NCBI GenBank assembly: GCA_043801155.1
Contig: JAZDMI010000021.1
Coordinates: 2,683 to 66,682 of the forward strand
Length of the DNA stretch: 64,000 nt
Direction: 5' to 3'
Origin: Candidatus Gottesmanbacteria bacterium
GTDB taxonomy: Bacteria > Patescibacteriota > Microgenomatia > JAMCYU01
The position numbers and the translations under genes were made by a program. The number at the start of each line of letters is the position of its first letter. The stretch's first letter is position 1. Below the pieces are notes generated by a model, which made no database searches, was not told where the DNA came from, and worked only from the letters and a program-made list of their open reading frames with translations. Shown here one piece after another: positions 22,704 through 47,029 of the stretch.

Positions 22704-23012
22704 ATGCCAAAAGGCAGAATCCGTGTACGTTTAAAAGCTTATGACAGTCGGGTTTTAGATGCTTGCTGTCAGCAAATCCTTGATACGGCCGTACGGACCG
22801 GCGCTAAGGTCGTGGGTCCGATACCACTGCCAACAGACAAATCCCGTTATTCTGTTCCCAAATCCCCGTTTACCGACAAAGACAGCCGCGAAGATTTCCA
22901 AATAAGAACACATAAAAGATTAATTGATATCCTTGAGCCAACCGATAAAACCATTGATCAACTGGCCCACCTCGATCTACCTGCAGGAGTTGACATTGAA
23001 ATAAAGATGTAG
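22704..23012 (+). CDS. rpsJ: 30S ribosomal protein S10
   Basis: [10 protein letters not shown]..., 102 aa. Confidence 0.97.
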
Positions 23013-23761: not shown

Positions 23762-23956
23762 ATGAGATATGAAAATAATTGTATGCATCCTGCCATTGTT
23801 TATATTCCGGATCTTAGGCCAGGGTCATATGATGCTAATGGTTTAATGGTTGGGTCACTGAAACATATTCCAAAAGAAAAAATTCAAAAGACAGATGTTT
23901 CAGCTAAATATAGACGAATAGGGCCTCCGATTCGTATTGTTGCCAAAGGGTATTAA
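23762..23956 (+). CDS. hypothetical protein
   Basis: Strong RBS TAGGAGG 7 nt upstream of the ATG. 64 aa. Confidence 0.45.
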   Translation: MRYENNCMHPAIVYIPDLRPGSYDANGLMVGSLKHIPKEKIQKTDVSAKYRRIGPPIRIVAKGY

Positions 23957-23983: not shown

Positions 23984-24358
23984 CTACTCTTTGTTTTTTT
24001 CTAATTCGTCTTTAATTTGCGGAGCGATATTATCCAAGAAAATCTGATCAACAAGTTCTTCGGTTATATGAGCTTCTCTTGGCCCAAAATGCTGCATAAA
24101 AACATGATGTTGCCCTATTTTATCCGGACTTAATTGTATTTGACAATAAGTATTGGGGAAGCTGCGGTGGATAAAATTACAAATGATTGTTCCACTTTTA
24201 AGCATAACTGTTTCCCATACAGAAATTTGATTTGGTTTCAAATCTTTATGTTTTGGAACTGGAATATCCTCTCCGACGAGCAGATAAACATCAGGCCAAT
24301 CTAAAGGATTGTACTCATTAAGAGAAATTGGTTGTCTTTCTTGTTTAGAGTTATTCAT
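23984..24358 (-). CDS. hypothetical protein (placed behind the repeated 5' module)
   Basis: 124-aa ORF. Its ATG lies 2 nt after an 11-codon remnant uORF. Confidence 0.5.
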   Translation of the reverse strand: MNNSKQERQPISLNEYNPLDWPDVYLLVGEDIPVPKHKDLKPNQISVWETVMLKSGTIICNFIHRSFPNTYCQIQLSPDKIGQHHVFMQHFGPREAHITEELVDQIFLDNIAPQIKDELEKNKE

Positions 24359-24360
24359 AT

Positions 24361-24455
24361 TTAAACTTGTTCTCGAGCTTCAGGATTTATTGACATAAGA
24401 AAGATATTCTACACATTCAAGTTATAATATACAAATCCTGACTAATTCCCACATC
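24361..24455 (-). repeat. copy 1 of a ~95-nt promoter plus 5'-coding module (includes remnant uORF 24361-24396, MSINPEAREQV*)
   Basis: About 85% identical by eye to 25943-26041. On the minus strand it reads TTGTAT-N17-TAGAAT-N9-ATG. Confidence 0.7.
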
Positions 24456-24550
24456 GGTATTCTACCGAAACGGCTTTCCATATAAATGTGCCATTTCTGA
24501 GTGAGACACACTATGATAAAATGGGAACAATAACGGAAAGAAATTAACAC

Positions 24551-25057
24551 ATGTCTAAAACAAAAACAAATGAAATTGTTTATGCATTTATAGATAGCCA
24601 GAATCTCAATTTAGGAGTCAGGAGTCAAAATTGGATTTTAGATTTTGACCGTTTTCGTGTTTATTTAAAAGAAAAGTACGGAACAAAGAAAGCATTTTTG
24701 TTTATAGGTTATGTTGAAGGCAATCAAAGCTTATACACATATTTACAAAAATCCGATTATATATGCATATTTAAGCCTACGTTGGAACTTAATAAAAATA
24801 AAAAAGTAAGAATAAAAGGTAATGTTGATGCTGAATTAGTGCTTCATTCGATGATAGAGTATCCCAATTATGATAAGGCTATAGTTGTTTCCGGTGATGG
24901 AGACTTTCATTGTTTGGTGGAGTATTTAAAGGAGAAAAATAAGCTATTGAAAATAATTGTTCCAAATAGAAAATATTCTTCCCTGCTTAGAGAATTTAGT
25001 AACTATATAGTTAATATAGGGTTGATGCGAAGCAAGTTAGAATTGAGAAAGAAATGA
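24551..25057 (+). CDS. NYN domain (LabA-like) putative ribonuclease
   Basis: AFIDSQNL...VVSGDGDFHCLVEYLKE. Confidence 0.7.
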   Translation: MSKTKTNEIVYAFIDSQNLNLGVRSQNWILDFDRFRVYLKEKYGTKKAFLFIGYVEGNQSLYTYLQKSDYICIFKPTLELNKNKKVRIKGNVDAELVLHSMIEYPNYDKAIVVSGDGDFHCLVEYLKEKNKLLKIIVPNRKYSSLLREFSNYIVNIGLMRSKLELRKK

Positions 25058-25198
25058 AAAGAGAGGCATTCCCTCGGGACGAAACCCTTTGGTAGTCCTC
25101 TCATCGTGATAAAAACATTATACTAAATTTACCTCACTACTGTCAAATACTGTATAGTCTCAGAGGGAAAAAGCATTTTTCTACTTAATGTTTAAAGC

Positions 25199-25579
25199 TT
25201 ATAATTTGGGGAAAATTCCCGAGCTCATCACTTCAATAGCTCTAAGAATAGCTTCCCGGGATTCTTTAGTAGGTTGCACGTCGTCAATAATTGAATCATT
25301 TAGTTTGTATTTTGGCAATAATCTTCTGGCCGCGGCAATAAATTGTGTCTCGAATTCCATTGTCATTTCTCTATTAGGAACACTTTCGAAACCCGGAGAA
25401 TTAAGTATTTCCAGATATGTTTTTGCAGTTCTGACATTACCTTTCAGAGCATCTTGATCTAAAAGAAGCGTAGAACTTCCCCAAGGATCCCTTTCTAATA
25501 ACTTTTGGGCGACGACCCGATCATAAACTTCTGCACGTATATTTTTAAATGTTTCACTGGCATTTGACATAAGAGGCAC
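25199..25579 (-). CDS. hypothetical protein, tandem paralog A
   Basis: Shares DP..SS.L.LDQ.AL...EILNS.G.E..P.R...ET..I.A..RL.PKY.L with 25620-25982. Confidence 0.6.
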   Translation of the reverse strand: MPLMSNASETFKNIRAEVYDRVVAQKLLERDPWGSSTLLLDQDALKGNVRTAKTYLEILNSPGFESVPNREMTMEFETQFIAAARRLLPKYKLNDSIIDDVQPTKESREAILRAIEVMSSGIFPKL

Positions 25580-25619
25580 ATTCTACCTTATTTAGGAAAA
25601 AAAGTATTCCCCTTTAAAT

Positions 25620-25982
25620 TTATTTTTGATTATTAGCTATATATAGAAAAACACCTGCCCGGCAAATTTGGTCTGGTTTGATTTTTTCTAAATAATCCGG
25701 CTTAAGTCCGTATTTTGGTATTAATCTCGAAACGGCATCAATTAAAGATGTCTCACGTTTTAAAAAATCTGCCCGATCAGGAAAGTTCTCATAGCCGGAT
25801 GAATTTAAAATTTCGATAATAGCTTTTGATACCATAACGTGTTCGATTAAGGCAAACTGGTCTAGGATAAGAGAACTTCTATTACAAGGATCCGGAACAA
25901 GGACTGATCTCGCCAGGTAAATATCAGTCATGATCTCAGGTGTTAAACCTAGTTGTTCTAGAGTTTCAGGATTTATTGCCAT
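25620..25982 (-). CDS. hypothetical protein, tandem paralog B
   Basis: See paralog A. TAGAAT-N9-ATG upstream. Confidence 0.6.
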   Translation of the reverse strand: MAINPETLEQLGLTPEIMTDIYLARSVLVPDPCNRSSLILDQFALIEHVMVSKAIIEILNSSGYENFPDRADFLKRETSLIDAVSRLIPKYGLKPDYLEKIKPDQICRAGVFLYIANNQK

Positions 25983-26041
25983 AAGAGAGATATTCTACAT
26001 ATTTGAGTTATAATATACAAATTCTGCCAAATTCCCATCTC
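25943..26041 (-). repeat. copy 2 of the ~95-nt promoter plus 5'-coding module
   Basis: Aligns with 24361-24455 (TTCAGGATTTATTG[AC]CATAAGA.AGATATTCTACA...GTTATAATATACAAAT). Confidence 0.7.
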
Positions 26042-26112: not shown

Positions 26113-26198
26113 CGTTAATTAGACCCATATTACGGTTATATTAACGGTATATTGACAAAATATCGTTAATATGTTAACATATTGTGATGAGATTAACG
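26113..26198 (+). promoter_or_regulatory. Fic promoter with candidate operators
   Basis: TTGACA at 26152-26157. Perfect 16-bp palindrome AATATGTTAACATATT at 26168-26183, abutting the GTG start. CGTTAAT/ATTAACG inverted pairs at 26113-26146 and 26164-26198. Confidence 0.5.
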
Positions 26199-27056
26199 CG
26201 GTTACAGGTGATTTCTGAACTGTTTGCCCAGTACCAGACAAAAAAAATAAACAAAGAATCTCTTCTTTCTATGGTCGATGATGTGGAAATTGCAGAGAGG
26301 GTCTACAACTCCAATGCCATAGAAAACTCGACACTCACCTTGCCCGAAACGGAAAAAATCCTGCTTCAGCTTGAAGTGAATAGGCATATATCGCTTAGAG
26401 AAGTTTTTGAGGCAAAAAATTTAGCCCAAGTCTACAACTATATTAAAAATACTGCCCCTCAAAAACCACTTTCCCTAGATATGATTTTATTACTTCATAA
26501 AATCCTGCTTACCAATATCCGTGATGAAGTTGCAGGACAGTTTCGTACGGGAAACGAAATGGTGCGGGTAGGAAATCACATCGGCATACCCTCGGAATTT
26601 ATAAGTCAAAGGATTCAAGAAATGCTCGTTCAATATAATTCAGACATGGAAATTTCCTTTATTCATAAAATTGGCCGTTTACATGCGGAGTTTGAAAGTA
26701 TTCACCCTTTTATTGACGGAAATGGCAGGATCGGACGAGTTCTTAATAACTATTTACTTATCCGTGAAGGATTTCCTCCGATTATCGTTAGAAATAAAGA
26801 TAAAGAAACTTATTATGATGCCCTGCGTTCATATGACACTTCGCATAATTTTAAACCAATGATGCGCATAGTTGAGTTAGCTGTTTTAGAATCTTTTCAT
26901 AAACGTCTGGCTTACCTTGAGGGACAGCGGATAATTCCTCTTACTGAATATGCGGCTACTCAAAAAAGATCTTTCCATACTCTTTTAAATTCAAGCCGTC
27001 GTCAAACTATTCCTGCTTTTCGCGAGAAAGGCGTCTGGAAAATCGGAGTAAAATAG
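26184..27056 (+). CDS. Fic/DOC family protein (canonical AMPylase-type motif, class II inhibitory helix)
   Basis: HPFIDGNGRIGR, N-terminal SNAIEN (S/TxxxE[G/N]). Confidence 0.85.
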   Translation: MMRLTRLQVISELFAQYQTKKINKESLLSMVDDVEIAERVYNSNAIENSTLTLPETEKILLQLEVNRHISLREVFEAKNLAQVYNYIKNTAPQKPLSLDMILLLHKILLTNIRDEVAGQFRTGNEMVRVGNHIGIPSEFISQRIQEMLVQYNSDMEISFIHKIGRLHAEFESIHPFIDGNGRIGRVLNNYLLIREGFPPIIVRNKDKETYYDALRSYDTSHNFKPMMRIVELAVLESFHKRLAYLEGQRIIPLTEYAATQKRSFHTLLNSSRRQTIPAFREKGVWKIGVK

Positions 27057-27060
27057 GAGA

Positions 27061-27109
27061 AAATCAAAAAAGTCAAAAGAGAGGAAAGAGGAGAGAGAAA
27101 AATTTAATG
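27061..27109 (+). repeat. polypurine intergenic linker, copy A
   Basis: AAATCAAAAAAGTCAAAAGAGAGGAAAGAGGAGAGAGAAAAATTTAATG. About 90% identical to 27576-27626. Confidence 0.75.
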
Positions 27110-27577
27110 AAAATAAATAAACAAATAAAAATCGAAAAACTTACCGAGAAGAGGTTTAATGAAGCGGTTAATTTGGTTTTGGTCGCCAACCTTGATACGC
27201 GGGAAGAAATTGAACATCACCTAAAACATCTGGATGCCCATTATATTGCCCTTGATAATGATAAAATTGTCGGAGTTATCGGTTGGTATCAGGATAATGT
27301 TCATTATGCCAATGAGGCTATGGGTGATAAATTTCCCGGAGAAGAGGCCTACTGGGTGGGATTTTTTACCACTGATAAAAATTACCGGAGGCAGGGAATT
27401 GGTTTTGCCCTGCTTCAAAAATTGGAGCAGGTAATAAAAGAAAAAGGAGAGGATAAAATTTGGGTATCCTCGGTGCCGGAAACAAAAGACTATTATCAAA
27501 GACAAGGATTTGAATTAGTTTTAATGGGATATATCAACGGCAACCAAAAATGTTTTATGGTTAAAAAACTTCAGTAA
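27107..27577 (+). CDS. GNAT family N-acetyltransferase
   Basis: RRQGIGFALLQKLE acetyl-CoA binding motif. 156 aa. Confidence 0.75.
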   Translation: MKINKQIKIEKLTEKRFNEAVNLVLVANLDTREEIEHHLKHLDAHYIALDNDKIVGVIGWYQDNVHYANEAMGDKFPGEEAYWVGFFTTDKNYRRQGIGFALLQKLEQVIKEKGEDKIWVSSVPETKDYYQRQGFELVLMGYINGNQKCFMVKKLQ

Positions 27578-27626: not shown

Positions 27627-29099
27627 TTTGAACAATCATTTAAAAATATTGATGATATTCTTCACCGGGATGCCGGATGCGCCACGGAATTAGATTATAT
27701 AGAACAAACTTCATGGATTCTATTCTTGAAATACCTTGATGATTTAGAGGAAACAAAAAGGAAAGAAGCGGTTTTAAAAAATAGACAATATGAATATATT
27801 ATTGCTCCTGAATTTCGCTGGAGCGCTTGGGCGGAACCAAAAACGAAAGATGGCAAATTAGATATGAATAAGGCGTTAACCGGAGACGATCTAAGAGACT
27901 TTGTAAATTTAAAACTTTTTCCATATCTTAAGAAATTTAAAATCGACAATAACGAGAATCAAACAACTATTGAATATAAAATTGGAGAAATTTTCAGTGA
28001 GCTAAAAAACAGGATTGAAAGCGGATACAGACTTCGTGAAATTCTTAACATTGTAGATACGATGCATTTTCGAACCGATAGCGATAAACACGAACTCTCA
28101 CATCTTTATGAAGCTAAAATTAAGAACATGGGAAATGCCGGACGAAACGGCGGAGAATATTACACTCCTCGTCCGCTTATTAAAACGATAGTTAAGGTGG
28201 TAATCCCAAAGATTGGCGATACTATATATGATGGAGCCTGCGGATCTGCCGGATTTCTAGTAGAGTCTTTTGATTATCTTAAACAAAGTAAAGAATTATC
28301 TACCTCAGAATCCGTAAAGCTACAAAATAATACTTTTTACGGTAAGGAAATAAAATCACTTGCATATATTATCGGTGTTATGAATATGATTCTTCATGGT
28401 ATTGAAGCGCCGAATATTCTCCATACAAATACGCTTGCTCAAAACATCAATGATATCGAGGAAAAAGATCGGGTTGACGTAATCCTTACGAATCCGCCAT
28501 TTGGTGCAGGAATAGGTCGGGAAATTCAGCAAAATTTTCCGATAAAAACCGGCGAGACGGCATATCTTTTCCTCCAACACTTTATCAAAATGCTCAAAGC
28601 CGGAGGAAAAGCCGGAGTGGTGATTAAAAATACTTTTCTTTCTAATACTGATAACGCATCCGCTTCGCTTCGTAAACGTCTTCTTGAGAGTTGTAATCTT
28701 CACACCGTGCTTGATTTGCCTGGCGGCGTCTTTACGGGAGCAGGTGTAAAAACCGTGGTATTGTTTTTTGAAAAAGGCTCGCCAACCAAAAAAGTATGGT
28801 TCTATCAGTTAAACCTTGACCGCAATCTAGGCAAAGGTAATCCCTTAAGCGAAGCGGATCTATCAGAATTCGTCGAACTGCAAAAAACCAAAGCAGGTAG
28901 CAAAAATTCTTGGAGCGTAGACATAAAAGATATTAATCAAACAACATTTGATTTATCGGTAAAGAATCCAAACAAAGGGAGAGAAGTAACCCTACGCGAA
29001 CCGAAAGAGATTTTGGAGGGAATGAGGAAGCTAGACAAGGAAAGTGAAAATACATTTAAGATTATTAAAAACATATTAAATACTGGAATAAATGAATAA
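27624..29099 (+). CDS. hsdM: type I restriction-modification system, DNA methyltransferase subunit M
   Basis: HsdM N-terminal domain, YYTPR, DGACGSAGFL, NPPFG. Confidence 0.9.
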   Translation: MFEQSFKNIDDILHRDAGCATELDYIEQTSWILFLKYLDDLEETKRKEAVLKNRQYEYIIAPEFRWSAWAEPKTKDGKLDMNKALTGDDLRDFVNLKLFPYLKKFKIDNNENQTTIEYKIGEIFSELKNRIESGYRLREILNIVDTMHFRTDSDKHELSHLYEAKIKNMGNAGRNGGEYYTPRPLIKTIVKVVIPKIGDTIYDGACGSAGFLVESFDYLKQSKELSTSESVKLQNNTFYGKEIKSLAYIIGVMNMILHGIEAPNILHTNTLAQNINDIEEKDRVDVILTNPPFGAGIGREIQQNFPIKTGETAYLFLQHFIKMLKAGGKAGVVIKNTFLSNTDNASASLRKRLLESCNLHTVLDLPGGVFTGAGVKTVVLFFEKGSPTKKVWFYQLNLDRNLGKGNPLSEADLSEFVELQKTKAGSKNSWSVDIKDINQTTFDLSVKNPNKGREVTLREPKEILEGMRKLDKESENTFKIIKNILNTGINE

Positions 29100-29730
29100 T
29101 TTATTAGCCTTGTTAGAGAAATATCAGACCCAAAATATTATCGCCGTCATAGCTTTAATATTGGCTTATTTAGCGTACAGAAAATCGGTTATTGATGAGT
29201 ATAGGAGTTGGTTGGATCTGGCAAAATCTTTCCAACACGAATTGAATTACGCAAAATATTGGATAGGAAATAGTTATGAAAAGATGATGAGTATAGATTG
29301 GTCGAATCCCTCCAGATTTGTTTATCCTCTTACCGCCGAAGCCGCGAAAGCGTTAATTTGGAAAGGACATCCGCCAAAGAGAATATTCCCAGATGATTTT
29401 TTTGATAAATTAGCTATATATAACGAACGTATTCAGGCATTTAACCATTTTTTAATGATTCAAGGAATCAATTATGTAGTGGCGGAAGTTGATAATAAAA
29501 ATGAAAAAATTTCAGAAAAAGCAAAGCATATTAATTATATCATCCATAATGATCTTATAGGTAGCCAGGATAATTATCACTTACACAATCTTTATAATTA
29601 TTTTAGTTGTCAATTGAAAATGATTGAAAAAGCAGATCTTTTGCTGATTCCATGGTATTTTAAATATCCTGAACGAATAGTTCTTGCTACTATTTTTATT
29701 TATATTATAGTTGATTATTTTATTCAGTGA
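29092..29730 (+). CDS. hypothetical membrane protein embedded between hsdM and hsdS
   Basis: 8-nt overlap with hsdM and GTGA overlap with hsdS. TM helices at both termini. I recognise no motif. Confidence 0.55.
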   Translation: MNNLLALLEKYQTQNIIAVIALILAYLAYRKSVIDEYRSWLDLAKSFQHELNYAKYWIGNSYEKMMSIDWSNPSRFVYPLTAEAAKALIWKGHPPKRIFPDDFFDKLAIYNERIQAFNHFLMIQGINYVVAEVDNKNEKISEKAKHINYIIHNDLIGSQDNYHLHNLYNYFSCQLKMIEKADLLLIPWYFKYPERIVLATIFIYIIVDYFIQ

Positions 29731-30886: not shown

Positions 30887-31606
30887 ATGAAATATATAAA
30901 AAAGCTTAATATGGTTTGTTTTAACTTACTGGAACTGAAGACGCTATATAAGACTGACAAAGTAATAAAAATTCTTATAGAAGCAAATAAAACAAGGTGT
31001 AATATCGTTAATTCATCTAAAGAACAATCTAAAAAGATCGTAGATTCAGTCGTGAAAGGAGATTTAAAACAAAAGGAGGAAATTGAAATATTCTCGGCGT
31101 TAAGCTTATGTGCCTTATTTTTCGAGAATGATAGTTTTATAGGTTTCGTTTTGAAGGACGGCTATGATGTAGGAAAAAACCCAATACAAACATTAGAAGG
31201 TTTGAAAAAGGCTGCGAAAGAAGATACTCTTACTGATTTTGCAATTATCACCAAAAGTGGAATGCGAGAATTTCAGCTAAAACAATTTTATAGACAAAAA
31301 CTGGAGACGGAAGACCTTTTTAACTTTATAAAAGAAAAAATTGAACATTATGGTGGTAATTTTGGTACCACTGCTTTGTTATTCTCGGTTAGAGGTGATG
31401 GAATAGGACCTTGTCAAAGCAATATTTCTTTTAAAGAAATTCACGAGAGGCTTTGCAAACTTAATTTAGACAGAAATGGATTAATTTTGATTTGGTATAA
31501 TGATGGCAACAAAAAACAGGTGATAATTGAAGTTTATCCTGATTTATCGGCATGCCAAAAAGAAACAGGTATTCACGATCAAACAAAAAATACCCTATAT
31601 AATTAG
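30887..31606 (+). CDS. hypothetical protein embedded between hsdS and hsdR (weak D...QxK nuclease-like pattern)
   Basis: 2-nt gap after hsdS. TDFAIITKSGMREFQLK resembles D-x13-Q-x-K of the Mrr-type PD-(D/E)xK motif. This is speculative. Confidence 0.5.
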   Translation: MKYIKKLNMVCFNLLELKTLYKTDKVIKILIEANKTRCNIVNSSKEQSKKIVDSVVKGDLKQKEEIEIFSALSLCALFFENDSFIGFVLKDGYDVGKNPIQTLEGLKKAAKEDTLTDFAIITKSGMREFQLKQFYRQKLETEDLFNFIKEKIEHYGGNFGTTALLFSVRGDGIGPCQSNISFKEIHERLCKLNLDRNGLILIWYNDGNKKQVIIEVYPDLSACQKETGIHDQTKNTLYN

Positions 31607-39378: not shown

Positions 39379-41463
39379 CTAGTAAATTTTTGACCGGTAA
39401 TCAACAATCATTATTTCCAACTTACCCTCATCTCTCATTTTAAGTAAGACCCTTCCGCCGGAATGAATATGAGGTAGGGGAACTCTTAAACGATAAACCC
39501 CATCTGAATCCTCGATTTTAACAAGATGAGGATCTAAAATTTGCTGGCGTTTATTAAAATTAATAATAGCTTGTTGAACAAAACCTCTTTCTTCTGTAGA
39601 AAATCCTTTCATTAAAAGTTCCAGTTCTTCAGACGTCGGTTCGATGATCGTTAGTTTTCCGGTTAAAGCCTGTTCTTCTTCGGTGACTGGTTTTTCTTCA
39701 CCATCTTTTTTAATAGTTTCCCTTGTTTCTTCAACTCTTATCTGCCTTCTTAATTCATAGGTAACATCATGAAAATGCACTTTTGGCAGCGATGACTTGA
39801 GTGGTTCTTGATTACCGTCCTTAAGAGTGTTTTTTAATTTTTGATGTTCCAGATAATCCGCTAAGTGCGTTAAGGTTTTCAGTACAATTTCCTGGCAACC
39901 TTGTTTGTAGATATGGTTATTGGATTCATTGATCGAATCAAGAACCATCCAGTCAAAAGTCTCTTTTGTCGCATCGATGCTTAAGAGAAGAAAAATTTCC
40001 TCATCTTCTTCACTTGTTTTATCTATAAACTCAAATGCCATACCAAATTTACGGGGATGATAAGGATCTGCTATGAGAGAAGCAGCGTCAGGTTTTTTTA
40101 AAAATTGTAAATTATTTGGTAATTGATCAGCATCTAAACTAAATTTTCTTTCCTTGTTAGTCTTAGTAATTCTGTCTATCTGTCTCTTGACCTCTTGCCA
40201 ATTAAAATCATTATCTGTTTCGGATATTTCTTCATTCGCTAAAATGTCTTTTAATTCTTCACCGCTAAGGACTATTTGTGCCAGTCTCATTTTTTTCCGG
40301 TAGTTTTCGATATTTTCAACTAGCTTCTTATAAAAAGGAATACTCGTTTCCTTTTTAACCAAATTTGTAGCTGCACGGTAGAATCCAATCGTTTGTATGG
40401 CAGAATTAAAGCCAAGGAGTAAAAATAAATATCGGCGATGATAAGTATTTTCGTCCTGGAGGTATTTCTCAAAAAGATTGATAAGTTCCATATCAGGTTG
40501 GCCATCTTTAGGAAAAAGACGCCTAAAGACTTCTTTTCTTAGCAGGGACAATTTATCTACCAGCTCTACTGCTTTTTCTACAATTTCAGTTGCTGGCTGA
40601 CTATTGGACCTAACTGCTTCTTGAATGTCTGTTTTAGAGATATCTGCCTTGAGGAATTGTGCTACTCTAACGCTAAATTGTGCAAAATCTCCCTCAATTG
40701 CCAAAGGATAATATTTAAGTAAAGGATTCCGGCTGATTTGTTCAGCAATAATATGTTCAGGTAGTTCTTCAAACGGTTCAATAGCTGATGACTCTACAAA
40801 TAAACGGACAAAAGGTACTAAGGATTCACGATCTTTATTAGAAAAGTTCATAAATTCAATTAATGAAGCTCCTTGAATAGAAAAATTAGTATGAGTTGAA
40901 TATTGATAATCGGAAAGAGTAAAGAAGTCTTCAGCCCCTTGATAAAAATTTCTCGTCTGGGCGAATCGTTTTAGTGAATTAATCTTTCCATGGCAATATA
41001 AAGAGAGCCCGAAATCCAATGCAAACTTGATACCTCTTATTTTACAATTTTTCCAGGATAATTCGGTGTCCTCGTTTAAAGACGAAGCTGGTTCGCCATC
41101 GGGAACTTTTTCCAGAAAACCATAGGCATTTTGCATATCATCTTGGATTTGTATTAGCTTTTTACTCCAGTCTTCAGTTGTTTCCCATCCGAAAGGGTTA
41201 ACTGTATCAGTTAAAGACTTAATATTATTTCCAAATTCATTTTTTTGCTTCATGGCTCGTATCAAATATTCTAGATAAGTAGGAACTTTCTTTTTCATAT
41301 CGTCTGTAAATACCTGATCCATATTTTTAAATAAATCTGATTCTAAAAGTGATTCAACGGTAGGCAAGTTAGTAGAATCCTGGTCTTCCGCCTTATCCAG
41401 GAGGTAGCCTTTAAGTGCGTTATCTGGGCCTTCAATATAATCTATTTCAAACTTAGCTGACAT
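39379..41463 (-). CDS. large orphan protein with a RelE/ParE-like C-terminal domain
   Basis: 694 aa. C-terminus YRLRVPLPHIHSGGRVLLKMRDEGKLEIMIVDYRSKIY matches the RelE/ParE pattern (YRLRV..YRvvY....v.vl.v.hR..iY). I do not recognise the N-terminal ~600 aa. Confidence 0.6.
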   Translation of the reverse strand: MSAKFEIDYIEGPDNALKGYLLDKAEDQDSTNLPTVESLLESDLFKNMDQVFTDDMKKKVPTYLEYLIRAMKQKNEFGNNIKSLTDTVNPFGWETTEDWSKKLIQIQDDMQNAYGFLEKVPDGEPASSLNEDTELSWKNCKIRGIKFALDFGLSLYCHGKINSLKRFAQTRNFYQGAEDFFTLSDYQYSTHTNFSIQGASLIEFMNFSNKDRESLVPFVRLFVESSAIEPFEELPEHIIAEQISRNPLLKYYPLAIEGDFAQFSVRVAQFLKADISKTDIQEAVRSNSQPATEIVEKAVELVDKLSLLRKEVFRRLFPKDGQPDMELINLFEKYLQDENTYHRRYLFLLLGFNSAIQTIGFYRAATNLVKKETSIPFYKKLVENIENYRKKMRLAQIVLSGEELKDILANEEISETDNDFNWQEVKRQIDRITKTNKERKFSLDADQLPNNLQFLKKPDAASLIADPYHPRKFGMAFEFIDKTSEEDEEIFLLLSIDATKETFDWMVLDSINESNNHIYKQGCQEIVLKTLTHLADYLEHQKLKNTLKDGNQEPLKSSLPKVHFHDVTYELRRQIRVEETRETIKKDGEEKPVTEEEQALTGKLTIIEPTSEELELLMKGFSTEERGFVQQAIINFNKRQQILDPHLVKIEDSDGVYRLRVPLPHIHSGGRVLLKMRDEGKLEIMIVDYRSKIY

Positions 41464-42428: not shown

Positions 42429-42457
42429 TTGCCTTTTTCTGATAAAATAAATAGATG
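42429..42457 (+). promoter_or_regulatory. promoter-like module J13
   Basis: TTGCCTTTTTCTG. The N17 hexamer TAGATG overlaps ATG 42455, so its function is doubtful. Confidence 0.3.
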
Positions 42458-43198
42458 AATAATTCTAAAAAAATTAAGGATATTGTAAAAAATTCTTACG
42501 CAGAAATTGCTAAAGCCTCTGATAGTTGTGGGTGCAGTTGTGGTTGTAGTTCTAACCAGACTGTTCAACGCCAAACACAACAAATAGGTTATTCCCCGGA
42601 AGAAATTAATCAAGCGCCTTCCGGTTCTAATCTTGGGCTTGGATGTGGCAACCCGGTGGCAATTGCTTCATTAAAAGAAGGGGAAATAGTTTTGGATTTA
42701 GGTTCCGGCGCAGGATTTGATGCTTTTTTAGCAGCGCAAAAGGTTGGGACAACGGGTAAAGTCATTGGTGTTGATATGACTGAGGAAATGCTTGTCAAAG
42801 CACGAGCTAACGCTATAAAAGGTGGTTTTACCAACGTTGAGTTCAGAGAAGGAGATATTGAAAATTTGCCCTTAGATGACAACTCGGTTGATGTTGTTAT
42901 TTCTAATTGCGTTATCAACCTTAGCCCGGATAAAGAAAAAGTATTTAAGGGAATTTATCGGGTACTTAAACCAGGTGGAAGACTCATGGTATCTGATACT
43001 GTACTTTCAAAACCATTACCGGATGAACTGCGGGAAAATGAAGAATTATTAACCGGATGTGTAAGTGGAGCTATCCTTAAAAAGGATTACCTGTCATTAC
43101 TCCAAAAAACAGGCTTTTCCAATATAAAAATACAAAAAGAAAGACCGGGGTTTCTTGCAGACTACAGTATAAGTATTACCTACTCAGCAGTCAAATAA
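42455..43198 (+). CDS. arsM: arsenite S-adenosylmethionine methyltransferase-like (ArsM family)
   Basis: [49 protein letters not shown]. Confidence 0.8.
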
Positions 43199-44274: not shown

Positions 44275-44582
44275 TGGGAATAATCAAGGGCTACCTTTTC
44301 GCTGATCTTAATTCCTTTTTCCTTTATTGTTCCCGGGGGTAATTCAAGAACGTCTTTGTATTGGGGAGGCCAAAAGAAAAGGCGGCTAGCTGGAAGGGAA
44401 TGAATCATCTTTACTACTTGTTTATTACTATCCAGAATTAGTACATCAATCGGAGATTTCATTCCAAAAGTATGGATACCGAAGCGGGTCGTAAAATAAA
44501 TTGGATAAATGTTTTTTTGTCCGATTAGTCCGACCGATTTTTCTATAAAGCTATGTAATGCCTTGACTTTAAGAAGAATCAT
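44271..44582 (-). CDS. DUF192 (COG1430) family protein
   Basis: GLIG...IHTFGMKSPIDVLILD pattern. Confidence 0.6.
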   Translation of the reverse strand: MILLKVKALHSFIEKSVGLIGQKNIYPIYFTTRFGIHTFGMKSPIDVLILDSNKQVVKMIHSLPASRLFFWPPQYKDVLELPPGTIKEKGIKISEKVALDYSH

Positions 44583-45520
44583 GAGGTTAACAACTCTTTT
44601 AATTTTTTTATACTTTTATCATCAAGGATAGAAATCGGCAGAACCTGGCCGAATTTTTGTAACATCTTTCGTTTTTCTTTTAACTCTTCTTTGGCGACTA
44701 AATCAGATTTGGTTAATAAAATTATTTCCGATTTTTGGATTAAAAGGGGATTGAATTTTTGCAGTTCCTGACGGACGGTTTGGTAATCATTTAAAACATT
44801 TTTTGATTCTACCGATACACAATGCAGAATTAAGTTTACCTTTTCAATATGTTTAAGAAAACTTATTCCTAAACCTTTTCCTAAAGAAGCACCTTCAATA
44901 AGACCGGGGATATCGGCAATAATTTTTTTAGCCATGACTCCCAGATTGGGTTCGATCGTCGTAAATGGGTAGTCGGCGACTTTAACATTGGCGCAGGTGA
45001 GTTCATTTAAAAGGCTGCTTTTGCCGGCGTTTGGCAGACCGATTAAGCCATAGTCAGCGATTAATTTTAAGACTATTTTAAGATTTTTTTGTTGTCCGGG
45101 TTCTCCGGCTTCGGCTTTTAAAGGAGTGGTATTAGTCGGTGAAGTCAGATCATGAGTGCCTTGGCCGCCCTTTCCACCTTTACAGATTAAAACCTTCTGT
45201 TCGATATTGCTTAATTCAATGGCTTCGTTAGTTTCCTGATCAGTAATAATACTTCCCTGAGGCAAGGCAATGGTAATATCTTTTCCGTTTCTACCTGTTT
45301 TATTAAATTTTCCGCCATTTTGTCCGTCTTCGGCTCTTCTGGTTTTTTTGCCCATAAATTGATTAAGAGATGTCAAATCAGAAGTGACTGTCAGATAAAT
45401 ATTCCCGCCTTTTCCGCCGTTGCCGCCGTCAGGACCGGTTCTTTCTCCGGGGTAAAATGAGACTTTACCCGCGCCGCCACTGCCGGCCGTAAAAATTACT
45501 TCGACTTCATCAACAAACAT
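44579..45520 (-). CDS. obg: GTPase Obg (short form lacking a C-terminal domain)
   Basis: MFVDEVEV..GGAGKVSF, Gly-rich Obg fold, GLPNAGKSSLL, DIPGLIEGA. Confidence 0.9.
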   Translation of the reverse strand: MFVDEVEVIFTAGSGGAGKVSFYPGERTGPDGGNGGKGGNIYLTVTSDLTSLNQFMGKKTRRAEDGQNGGKFNKTGRNGKDITIALPQGSIITDQETNEAIELSNIEQKVLICKGGKGGQGTHDLTSPTNTTPLKAEAGEPGQQKNLKIVLKLIADYGLIGLPNAGKSSLLNELTCANVKVADYPFTTIEPNLGVMAKKIIADIPGLIEGASLGKGLGISFLKHIEKVNLILHCVSVESKNVLNDYQTVRQELQKFNPLLIQKSEIILLTKSDLVAKEELKEKRKMLQKFGQVLPISILDDKSIKKLKELLTS

Positions 45521-45841: not shown

Positions 45842-47029
45842 ATGTATAGACAGTTTAATCAAAGAAACCGGGGAAGGAATAATTTTAACCGCGTTAGTAG
45901 CGGTCGTTCCCGTTTTGGGAAAAAAATTGTTTCTTTTGACCCCACAAATTTCATTAATACTGTCCCTGTGGAAAATAAAATCGAGGAATTTACCGTTACC
46001 CATACTTTTGCTGATTTTAAAATCAGGGAGGAAATAAAAGTCAATATTGACCAAAGGGGATATAAAATTCCTACTCCCATTCAGGACAAAGCAATTCCGG
46101 TAATTCTTGAGGGCCGGGATTTAATCGGTATTGCCAATACCGGCACCGGCAAAACCGCCGCTTTTTTAATCCCGCTTATCAATAAAATATTAAATGACCG
46201 CAGTCAGAGAGTTTTAATAATCACTCCGACCCGCGAGCTGGCCGCCCAAATAAGGGACGAGTTGTTCGCTTTTGCCAGAGGTTTGAACGTTTTTGGCGCT
46301 CTTTGCATTGGCGGGGCCAATATAAATAGGCAAATAAACGATATCAGAAGAAATCCCCAGTTTGTCATCGGTACTCCGGGAAGAATTCAGGATCTTATTA
46401 ATTCCCGGAATCTAAATCTGTCTAATTTTAATTCGGTGGTGCTTGATGAGGCAGACCGGATGGTCGATATCGGTTTTCTACCAAATATCAGGTATATTAT
46501 TGGTTTTCTTCCTAAAAATCGTCAGTCACTTTTTTTCTCGGCCACCATTGACGGAAAAGTCAAAGAAGTACTCAATAATTTTGTGCAAAATCCGGTTACT
46601 GTTTCGGTTAAAACCGGCGAAACCACCCAAAATATTAAACAAGATATTATTAAAATAGGCAATTCCACCAAAATTGACGAGCTCCATAATCTACTTATAC
46701 AAGATGAGTATGAGAAGGTCCTTATTTTTGCCAGGACAAAACGAGGGGTGCAAAAACTTTATGAAGAACTGCTGGAGCGTGGTTTTAAGGTCGACGCCAT
46801 TCATGGTAATAAGAGACAGGGCCAAAGGATAAAAGCTTTGGAGAAATTTAAAACCAGCTCAATTCAAATTCTTATTGCGACTGATCTTGCCTCAAGGGGT
46901 TTGGACATACCCGATGTTACACATGTTATCAACTACGACTTACCGGAATGTTTAGATGCCTATATTCACCGAATCGGTAGAACCGGAAGGATGGATAAAA
47001 AAGGTATTGCCTTAACTTTTGTTTCTTAA
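45842..47029 (+). CDS. DEAD-box ATP-dependent RNA helicase
   Basis: Q motif PTPIQ, ANTGTGKTAAF, VLDEADRM, SAT, HRIGRTGR. Confidence 0.9.
   Translation: MYRQFNQRNRGRNNFNRVSSGRSRFGKKIVSFDPTNFINTVPVENKIEEFTVTHTFADFKIREEIKVNIDQRGYKIPTPIQDKAIPVILEGRDLIGIANTGTGKTAAFLIPLINKILNDRSQRVLIITPTRELAAQIRDELFAFARGLNVFGALCIGGANINRQINDIRRNPQFVIGTPGRIQDLINSRNLNLSNFNSVVLDEADRMVDIGFLPNIRYIIGFLPKNRQSLFFSATIDGKVKEVLNNFVQNPVTVSVKTGETTQNIKQDIIKIGNSTKIDELHNLLIQDEYEKVLIFARTKRGVQKLYEELLERGFKVDAIHGNKRQGQRIKALEKFKTSSIQILIATDLASRGLDIPDVTHVINYDLPECLDAYIHRIGRTGRMDKKGIALTFVS

What the first reader, a model, noticed from the sequence alone, without database searches (positions are those of the whole stretch)
23984..26041. Repeated promoter plus 5'-coding module heading three minus-strand genes, including a decapitated remnant uORF
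Seen in sequence: 24361-24455 and 25943-26041 are about 85% identical. On the minus strand each reads TTGTAT-N17-TAGAAT-N9-ATG followed by M(S/A)INPE... In copy 2 this opens the 120-aa gene 25620-25982. In copy 1 the frame stops after 11 codons (MSINPEAREQV*, 24396-24361), and an unrelated 124-aa ORF starts 2 nt later. A third, more diverged copy (TAGAAT-N9-ATG) heads 25199-25579, which is a protein paralog of 25620-25982. Inference: a conserved expression module has had different gene bodies swapped in behind it. This resembles variable immunity or effector cassette loci.
Basis: seen in the sequence. Interest (0 to 1): 0.5.

Follow-up and report, generated by a model that had tools for sequence, protein, structure and literature searches.

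The report
Gene stump left before surviving gene
The repeated 95-base block is the promoter and first ten codons of a small, fast-evolving orphan gene family, and one copy is most likely the stump of a family member deleted from a two-gene operon, which makes this tidy but ordinary genome decay.

Summary
On the minus strand, 24451-24361 and 26037-25943 align at 81 of 95 columns (85%), or 88% over 85 ungapped bases. A 41-base pattern taken from the two copies matched none of 100 shuffles.

Both copies read TTGTAT-N17-TAGAAT-N9-ATG. A third, weaker copy (GTAGAAT..CTCTTATG) heads the paralog at 25199-25570.

The interpretation needs correcting. Related Gottesmanbacteria contigs show that family "A" (the 120/123-aa paralogs) and family "C" (the 124-aa protein) form an A-C operon with a 4-nt gap (L004). 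That operon has decayed differently in each genome:
- L001: A is gone, and A's promoter sits directly on C's ATG.
- L005: C is gone, except for its last ~17 bases.
- The window: A's body is gone, leaving the promoter plus an 11-codon stump that stops 2 nt before C.

So deletion explains this better than cassette swapping.

The -10 box lies 7-9 nt from each ATG and there is no Shine-Dalgarno sequence. This points to leaderless mRNAs, which look common in this genome. C is probably translated by reinitiation after the stump; that step is inferred.

A and C match no known family by sequence, and A's structure model matches nothing known either. They sit at the edge of a variable defence island. 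A toxin-antitoxin-like function is only a guess. Interest is modest.

The parts
25943..26037 (-). Module copy 2: -35-like TTGTAT (26020-26015), 17-nt spacer, -10 TAGAAT (25997-25992), 9-nt spacer ending CTCTT, ATG (25982-25980) and the first ~13 codons of gene A2.
25620..25982 (-). Gene A2, 120 aa (NCBI: hypothetical protein V1858_02805). Divergent member of the orphan A family. The model is mostly helical with one small hairpin.
   Evidence: AlphaFold pLDDT 86.5. No family or fold match.
25568..25586 (-). Module copy 3 (core only): GTAGAAT-gtgc-CTCTTATG. The -10 TAGAAT is at 25585-25580 and the ATG at 25570-25568. There is no convincing -35.
25199..25570 (-). Gene B, 123 aa from ATG 25570. 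A-family paralog: 38% identical to A2 over 96 aligned aa, and 39-40% identical to the members in other genomes (P0005, P0006).
24361..24451 (-). Module copy 1: TTGTAT (24434-24429), TAGAAT (24411-24406), then the stump of an A2-like gene.
24361..24396 (-). Stump ORF, 11 codons plus stop (MSINPEAREQV*). Relative to A2 a 4-nt gap puts TAA in frame. Homology to A2 ends at this TAA, which lies 2 nt before C's ATG.
23984..24358 (-). Gene C, 124 aa (V1858_02790). Orphan family, full length relative to its homologs. No Shine-Dalgarno sequence is visible upstream.
   Evidence: dN/dS about 0.2 between two homologs.

Best explanation
The repeat is the native promoter and translation start of a small orphan gene family (A), present three times because the family has three starts in this genome. 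Genes A2 (25620-25982) and B (25199-25570) are intact. The third start (copy 1) is the stump of an A2-like gene that once stood upstream of gene C in a two-gene A-C operon. A deletion removed its body, leaving the promoter, ten A-type codons and a stop.

Shown:
- the repeat itself
- the paralogy of A2 and B
- the A-C operon in a relative, and independent loss of A or of C in other relatives.

Inferred:
- Transcription starts a few bases after the TAGAAT box, so the mRNAs have almost no leader (0-3 nt) and the ribosome starts at the 5'-terminal AUG without a Shine-Dalgarno sequence.
- In copy 1 the ribosome translates the 11-codon stump, stops at TAA and restarts 2 nt later at C's AUG. The stump would then be what keeps C expressed.

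Speculative: A-C is a two-component cassette of the neighbouring defence island. A would be a fast-evolving neutraliser or regulator and C the conserved effector. The intact A2 and B copies could cover in trans for the lost A.
For: Repeat and anatomy.

A-C operon:
- L004 carries A homolog P0005 (209-580), then TAA-TTTT-ATG, then a C homolog (585-971) that is 55% identical to window C, E = 6e-51.
- L004 differs by about 10% from both L001 and L005 over the stretches they share, so it is not an assembly chimera of those two.

Independent decay:
- In L001, TTTATCTGTGcTATAAT-N7-ATG heads C directly. That promoter core matches L004's A promoter at 88% over 26 nt.
- In L005/L009, A (P0006) is followed by AGCCAGGCGAAATTAA, the last codons of C, and then by the same downstream DNA as in L001.

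Same site in every genome: all loci lie just beyond fusA-tuf-rpsJ-MazG.

C in the window is full length. C is under purifying selection in its relatives: dN 0.06, dS 0.31.

Leaderless reading:
- Every A-family start has a -10 box, 9 nt ending CTCTT, then ATG.
- A -10-like hexamer lies 5-10 nt before the first ATG in 14 of 63 long ORFs, against 6% of other ATGs, p = 1.7e-5.
- The neighbouring ORF 23762-23956 has a clear AGGAGG, so missing Shine-Dalgarno sequences are not universal in this genome.

[quoted passage not shown] The gaps here are 2 nt (window) and 4 nt (L004).
Against: - The A-C arrangement rests on a single 1-kb contig (L004) plus remnants. No strain with an intact A1-C was found for the window's own lineage.
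- The stump is A2-like, whereas the A next to C in L004 is closer to B. The history therefore needs an extra duplication or exchange.
- TTGTAT matches only 3 of 6 positions of the -35 consensus, and the promoter scan did not call these promoters.
- There are no transcript or ribosome data, so the leaderless start and the reinitiation are inference.
- L001 keeps C with no A within 10 kb either side. This argues against a simple toxin-antitoxin function unless an A lies elsewhere in that genome.
- Two copies cannot separate functional constraint on the 95 nt from a recent duplication.
Confidence: 0.68

Rival explanations
1. Cassette swapping: a conserved promoter plus 5' module serves as a landing site behind which unrelated gene bodies are exchanged by recombination. 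C was placed behind it in that way.
For: C is unrelated to A yet sits behind an A-type head. Between L004 and L005 the upstream DNA is 90.6% identical, while the A bodies share 43% of residues with dS about 1.6. This looks like allele exchange downstream of a conserved promoter.
Against: C is A's ordinary downstream neighbour (L004). The other variants are explained by simple deletions with visible remnants. No recombinase, attC-like site or flanking repeat was seen. The module occurs only twice in 64 kb and not at all in viral contigs.
Confidence: 0.14
2. Promoter capture: a ~95-nt piece of A2's 5' region was copied to a spot in front of an already independent C gene. In that case copy 1 was never a complete gene at this site.
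For: The stump is 85-88% identical to A2, far closer than A2 is to B. Homology stops sharply at both ends.
Against: It requires an ectopic copy to land precisely so that a stop lies 2 nt before C's ATG. The comparative data already place an A gene upstream of C. No trace of a previous C promoter is seen next to the junction.
Confidence: 0.12
3. The 11-codon ORF is a selected regulatory leader peptide (attenuation or ribosome stalling) rather than a remnant.
For: It sits at the 5' end of the transcript and ends 2 nt before C.
Against: Its sequence is simply the A2 N-terminus, with 27 of 30 nt identical. The C homologs in L001 and L004 have no such ORF. No terminator or alternative hairpin lies nearby.
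Confidence: 0.04
4. The similarity is chance among AT-rich promoter hexamers.
For: For the third copy only, the shared core is short (19-23 nt).
Against: Copies 1 and 2 share 81 of 95 positions, including 30 nt of coding sequence. A 41-nt pattern made from the two copies matched none of 100 shuffles.
Confidence: 0.01

Closest known systems
Leaderless bacterial genes (the -10 box a few bases before a 5'-terminal AUG), as mapped in mycobacteria (Cortes et al. 2013 and Shell et al. 2015, as cited in PMC12641261 and PMC12548453)
   Same: A -10 hexamer lies 7-9 nt before the ATG. No Shine-Dalgarno sequence is visible. The same layout is enriched among this genome's gene starts.
   Different: The spacing here (9 nt) implies a 2-3 nt leader rather than none. 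The organism is a CPR bacterium (Gottesmanbacteria), and two full-text searches found no paper describing leaderless mRNAs in this group. No transcript data exist.
Translational coupling by termination-reinitiation in tightly spaced gene pairs (PMC6728339; review PMC12548453)
   Same: The stop-to-start distance is 2 nt in the window and 4 nt in L004, and the downstream gene has no visible ribosome-binding site of its own.
   Different: In the window the upstream 'gene' is only an 11-codon remnant. Coupling has not been tested.
Type II toxin-antitoxin pairs with orphan antitoxin copies
   Same: Two small co-directional genes sit in one operon. The upstream partner evolves much faster than the downstream one, and extra solo copies of the upstream partner exist. 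The setting is a defence island.
   Different: There is no similarity to any toxin or antitoxin family, and no DNA-binding domain was recognised in A. C occurs without an A within 10 kb in L001.
Gene remnants left by operon decay (pseudogene stumps)
   Same: The head of a gene is retained after an internal or 3' deletion. Relatives carry other deletion states.
   Different: Here the stump may still matter, because it carries the only promoter and translation entry point for the surviving downstream gene.

Membership tests
Leaderless mRNA gene start | -10 promoter element placed so that transcription starts at, or within about 5 nt of, the start codon | tested here: met
   TAGAAT-N9-ATG in all three window copies. 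TATAAT-N9-ATG in L004 and L005, and TATAAT-N7-ATG in L001.
Leaderless mRNA gene start | No Shine-Dalgarno sequence before the start codon | tested here: met
   The motif scan found no GGAG/GAGG/AGGA/AAGG 3-12 nt upstream of the A2, B (ATG 25570) or C starts.
Leaderless mRNA gene start | Mapped transcript 5' end at the start codon | not testable with these tools
   No transcriptome data are available for this uncultured organism.
Translational coupling (termination-reinitiation) | Overlap or very short gap between the upstream stop and the downstream start | tested here: met
   TAA-AT-ATG in the window. TAA-TTTT-ATG in L004.
Translational coupling (termination-reinitiation) | Downstream translation depends on upstream translation | not testable with these tools
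   This needs reporter constructs.
Type II toxin-antitoxin system | Two small adjacent co-directional genes in one operon | tested here: met
   L004 carries A (123 aa) and C (128 aa) 4 nt apart.
Type II toxin-antitoxin system | Either partner belongs to a known toxin or antitoxin family or fold | tested here: not met
Type II toxin-antitoxin system | The toxin gene is not kept without a cognate antitoxin | tested here: inconclusive
   L001 has an intact C and no A within 10 kb either side. The rest of that genome was not searched. The window has A2 and B nearby.
Type II toxin-antitoxin system | Growth inhibition by one partner, relieved by the other | not testable with these tools
   Experiment required.
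Mobile promoter, MITE or integron-type cassette | Many dispersed copies, terminal inverted repeats or attC sites, and an associated recombinase | tested here: not met
   Only 2 copies in 64 kb and none in viral contigs. No flanking inverted repeat. No integrase among the neighbours scanned against Pfam.
Small antitoxin of Fic proteins (inhibitory [S/T]xxxE[G/N] helix; from my own knowledge of Engel et al. 2012) | Conserved inhibitory motif on a helix, partnered with a Fic protein that lacks its own | tested here: not met
   The motif is present in A2 (SSGYEN) and P0005 (SPDFEG) but not in B or P0006. In the model it lies in a loop. The adjacent Fic carries its own SNAIEN motif. L005 has A but no Fic.

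The most novel reading that the evidence does not exclude
A-C is an undescribed two-protein defence or toxin-antitoxin-like system private to a clade of Gottesmanbacteria. Its A component circulates as anciently diverged alleles behind a conserved leaderless promoter. The solo A2 and B copies act in trans, which is why the A next to C could be deleted. The 11-codon stump is kept by selection as the ribosome entry point for C.
Probability: 0.2. Interest if true: 0.5.

Novelty: new member of a known kind. Interest (0 to 1): 0.3.

Why it matters
This is a clean natural example of how an operon decays while its surviving gene stays expressed. Two independent losses of the upstream gene (the window and L001) both left the downstream gene with a usable start. 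In L001 the promoter was fused to its ATG at leaderless distance. In the window a mini-ORF was kept that ends 2 nt before it.

It also adds sequence-level evidence that leaderless gene starts are frequent in a CPR bacterium, for which two full-text searches found no description. And it flags two orphan protein families at the edge of a defence island as candidates for a small two-component system. None of this overturns current understanding.

Tried and rejected
- **Family searches.** Pfam, NCBIfam, PADLOC, PHROGs and PDB-sequence searches of A2, B and C gave nothing.
- **Family size.** A word-indexed search of 5.8 billion proteins found only A2 itself. For C it found itself plus P0003. An exhaustive profile search of 1.84 billion representatives found four A-family members in all.
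- **Wider collections.** Scans of JGI metagenome contigs, GTDB species genomes and viral contigs with A and C profiles found no relatives. tblastn against phage records found none. The four-sequence A alignment was too variable for a locus scan.
- **Structure.** The A model is confident but has no informative neighbour. The afdb50 library was unavailable. The C model has pLDDT 50 and was not searched.
- **RNA.** Rfam found nothing in 22.5-27.5 kb.
- **A second C remnant after gene B.** A 20-nt match at 80% has p about 0.03, which is not enough.
- **A as a Fic antitoxin.** Rejected; see the membership test.
- **Mobile-element reading.** Rejected: two copies and no inverted repeats.
- **Literature.** Full-text searches found no paper describing leaderless mRNAs in CPR/Patescibacteria, and no useful paper on Gottesmanbacteria defence.

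Full report
**1.

Read on the minus strand, 24451-24361 and 26037-25943 align at 81 of 95 columns (85.3%). There is one 4-nt gap. The ungapped core is 85 nt at 88% identity. A 41-nt pattern made from the two copies occurs twice in the window and never in 100 shuffles.

- Both copies read TTGTAT-N17-TAGAAT-N9-ATG, followed by M(S/A)INPE.
- Copy 2 opens the 120-aa ORF 25620-25982, called A2 here.
- Copy 1's frame ends after 11 codons (24396-24361). The 124-aa ORF, called C here (23984-24358), starts 2 nt later.
- The third copy is only a 19-23-nt core, GTAGAAT..CTCTTATG, at 25586-25568. It heads a paralog, called B here, that is 38% identical to A2, E = 5e-21.
- B most likely starts at ATG 25570 (123 aa). 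The GTG at 25579 given by the ORF lister lies against the -10 box.

**2. Where the window comes from**

The window comes from a Candidatus Gottesmanbacteria (CPR) metagenome-assembled genome. The two proteins are annotated as hypothetical proteins V1858_02805 and V1858_02790.

The genes lie just after fusA-tuf-rpsJ, a GIY-YIG gene and a MazG-like gene. The following stretch holds:
- a NYN-domain gene, a Fic gene and a GNAT gene
- a type I restriction-modification system
- NUDIX, Mrr and PD-(D/E)XK genes.

Conserved genes (Obg, a DEAD-box helicase) resume near 44.5 kb, and rplC/rplD appear only at 57.4 kb. The finding therefore sits at the rpsJ-proximal edge of a variable defence island.

**3. 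Both protein families are tiny orphans**

- An exhaustive profile search of 1.84 billion representative proteins found four A-family members: A2, B, P0005 and P0006.
- C has one other cluster, P0003, at 57% identity.
- No match was found in Pfam, NCBIfam, PADLOC, PHROGs or PDB sequences.
- No relatives were found in JGI metagenome contigs, GTDB species genomes, viral contigs or phage records.
- C's model is poor (pLDDT 50) and was not used.

**4. The relatives explain the stump**

All homologs come from one set of samples. Where enough flanking DNA was assembled (L001, L005-L010), they lie at the same site beyond rpsJ-MazG. The flanking proteins are well conserved: MazG-like is 77% and GNAT 82% identical at the protein level.

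| Locus | State | Evidence |
|---|---|---|
| L004 | A homolog P0005 (209-580), then TAA-TTTT-ATG, then a C homolog (585-971; 55% identical to window C, E = 6e-51): a two-gene A-C operon | |
| L001 | C alone, directly behind TTTATCTGTGcTATAAT-N7-ATG; this promoter core matches L004's A promoter at 88% over 26 nt | |
| L005/L009 | A (P0006) alone, followed by AGCCAGGCGAAATTAA (the last codons of C) and the same downstream DNA as L001 | |
| Window | Promoter plus 11-codon stump of A, then C | |

L004 differs by about 10% from both L001 and L005 over the parts they share, so it is not a chimera of those two assemblies.

The simplest history is an ancestral A-C operon that lost A in L001, lost C in L005, and lost the body of A in the window. 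The L001 and window junctions differ, so A was lost at least twice.

Homology between the stump and A2 runs to GTTTAA. The 4-nt gap puts TAA in frame, and C's ATG follows after AT. C in the window is full length relative to its homologs.

**5. How it probably works (inferred)**

Every A-family start has a -10 box, then 9 nt ending in CTCTT, then ATG, with no Shine-Dalgarno motif. A transcript starting about 7 nt after the -10 box would have a leader of only 2-3 nt, so it would be effectively leaderless.

This layout is common in the genome. In 14 of 63 long ORFs a -10-like hexamer lies 5-10 nt before the first ATG, against 6% of other ATGs (p = 1.7e-5). The neighbouring ORF 23762-23956 has a clear AGGAGG, so the genome uses both modes.

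C has no ribosome-binding site of its own, either in the window or in L004. The stop-to-start gaps are 2 and 4 nt. Translational coupling is most efficient at such short distances (PMC12548453; PMC6728339).

I therefore propose that the stump is translated from the 5' end of the transcript and hands ribosomes on to C. In L001 the same need was met differently, by placing C's ATG at leaderless distance from the promoter. Both outcomes keep C expressed. This fits the purifying selection on C (dN 0.06, dS 0.31 between L001 and L004).

**6. What A-C does is unknown**

A evolves much faster than its surroundings. A-family identities are at most 43%, while C is 57% and the flanking proteins 77-82% identical.

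Between L004 and L005 the upstream DNA is 90.6% identical. The A bodies nevertheless share only 43% of residues, with dS about 1.6.

A fast-evolving upstream partner, a conserved downstream partner, spare solo copies of the former and a defence-island setting all resemble toxin-antitoxin or effector-immunity pairs. Against that, no family membership could be shown, and L001 keeps C with no A within 10 kb. I give that functional reading about 0.2-0.25.

**7. Rivals**

- Cassette swapping behind a fixed module: 0.14.
- Ectopic promoter capture: 0.12.
- A selected leader peptide: 0.04.
- Chance similarity: 0.01.

These are weighed in the Rival explanations section. The mobile-element and Fic-antitoxin readings were tested and rejected.

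**8. Verdict**

The repeat is real and the anatomy was read correctly. It reflects paralogous gene starts plus a deletion remnant in a decaying two-gene operon, not a cassette-exchange site. The leaderless and reinitiation mechanism is plausible but untested. Novelty is limited to two orphan families and a neat evolutionary example. Interest is 0.3.

Noticed in passing
window 25052-25146 (-): A perfect consensus promoter (TTGACA-18-TATAAT, 25146-25117) is followed by a hairpin (25075-25061) and a T-run. This would give a ~55-60-nt transcript ending opposite the last few bases of the NYN gene (24551-25057, +). It also holds a 33-codon ORF from ATG 25104, read by eye. The fold is not better than shuffles (z = -1.15) and there is no Rfam match.
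   Followed up: partly
window 26138-26172: A 17-nt-arm palindrome (88% complementary, 1-nt gap) overlaps the -35 TTGACA (26152) of the promoter-like site before the Fic gene (26184-27056), so it looks like an operator. The Fic protein has HPFIDGNGRIGR and its own N-terminal SNAIEN motif.
   Followed up: no
window 22704-57904: rpsJ (22704-23012) lies ~34 kb from rplC/rplD (57437, 57912). The first ~21 kb after rpsJ, up to Obg (44579-45520) and the DEAD-box helicase (45842-47029), is a defence island whose content differs completely between relatives. The window has a type I restriction-modification system, Mrr, Fic and NYN. L005 has an EcoRI-like methylase plus GmrSD/HNH. L001 has a PvuII-like endonuclease (faint Pfam hit), methylases, a LexA-like gene and an E1/E2-like pair.
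   Followed up: partly
whole window: Leaderless-type gene starts are enriched. A -10-like hexamer lies 5-10 nt before the first ATG in 14 of 63 long ORFs, against 6% of other ATGs (p = 1.7e-5). Several look like TGnTAnAAT-N6-ATG, for example 44579-45520 (-), 42455-43198 (+) and 39379-41463 (-).
   Followed up: partly
window 25176-25195 vs 23996-24015: The 20 nt just after gene B's stop are 80% identical to the 3' coding end of C. This could be a second C remnant, but the match is weak: p about 0.03 by shuffling and by comparison with other stretches of the window.
   Followed up: yes
window 27107-27577 vs L005 9149-9610: The GNAT gene is 85.5% identical in DNA between the window and L005. That is more than tuf-rpsJ (80%) or fusA (76%) in the same pair, which hints at recent exchange within the island.
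   Followed up: no
window 29092-29730 and 30887-31606: Two ORFs with no Pfam match (212 aa and 239 aa) are interleaved in the type I restriction-modification operon, one between hsdM and hsdS and one between hsdS and hsdR.
   Followed up: no
L004 140-175; L005 9943-9966: A perfect inverted repeat, CCCTGTACC-AGA-CGGTACAGGG in L004, lies just upstream of the A promoter in the relatives. It could be an operator or an upstream terminator. The window's module has no equivalent.
   Followed up: no
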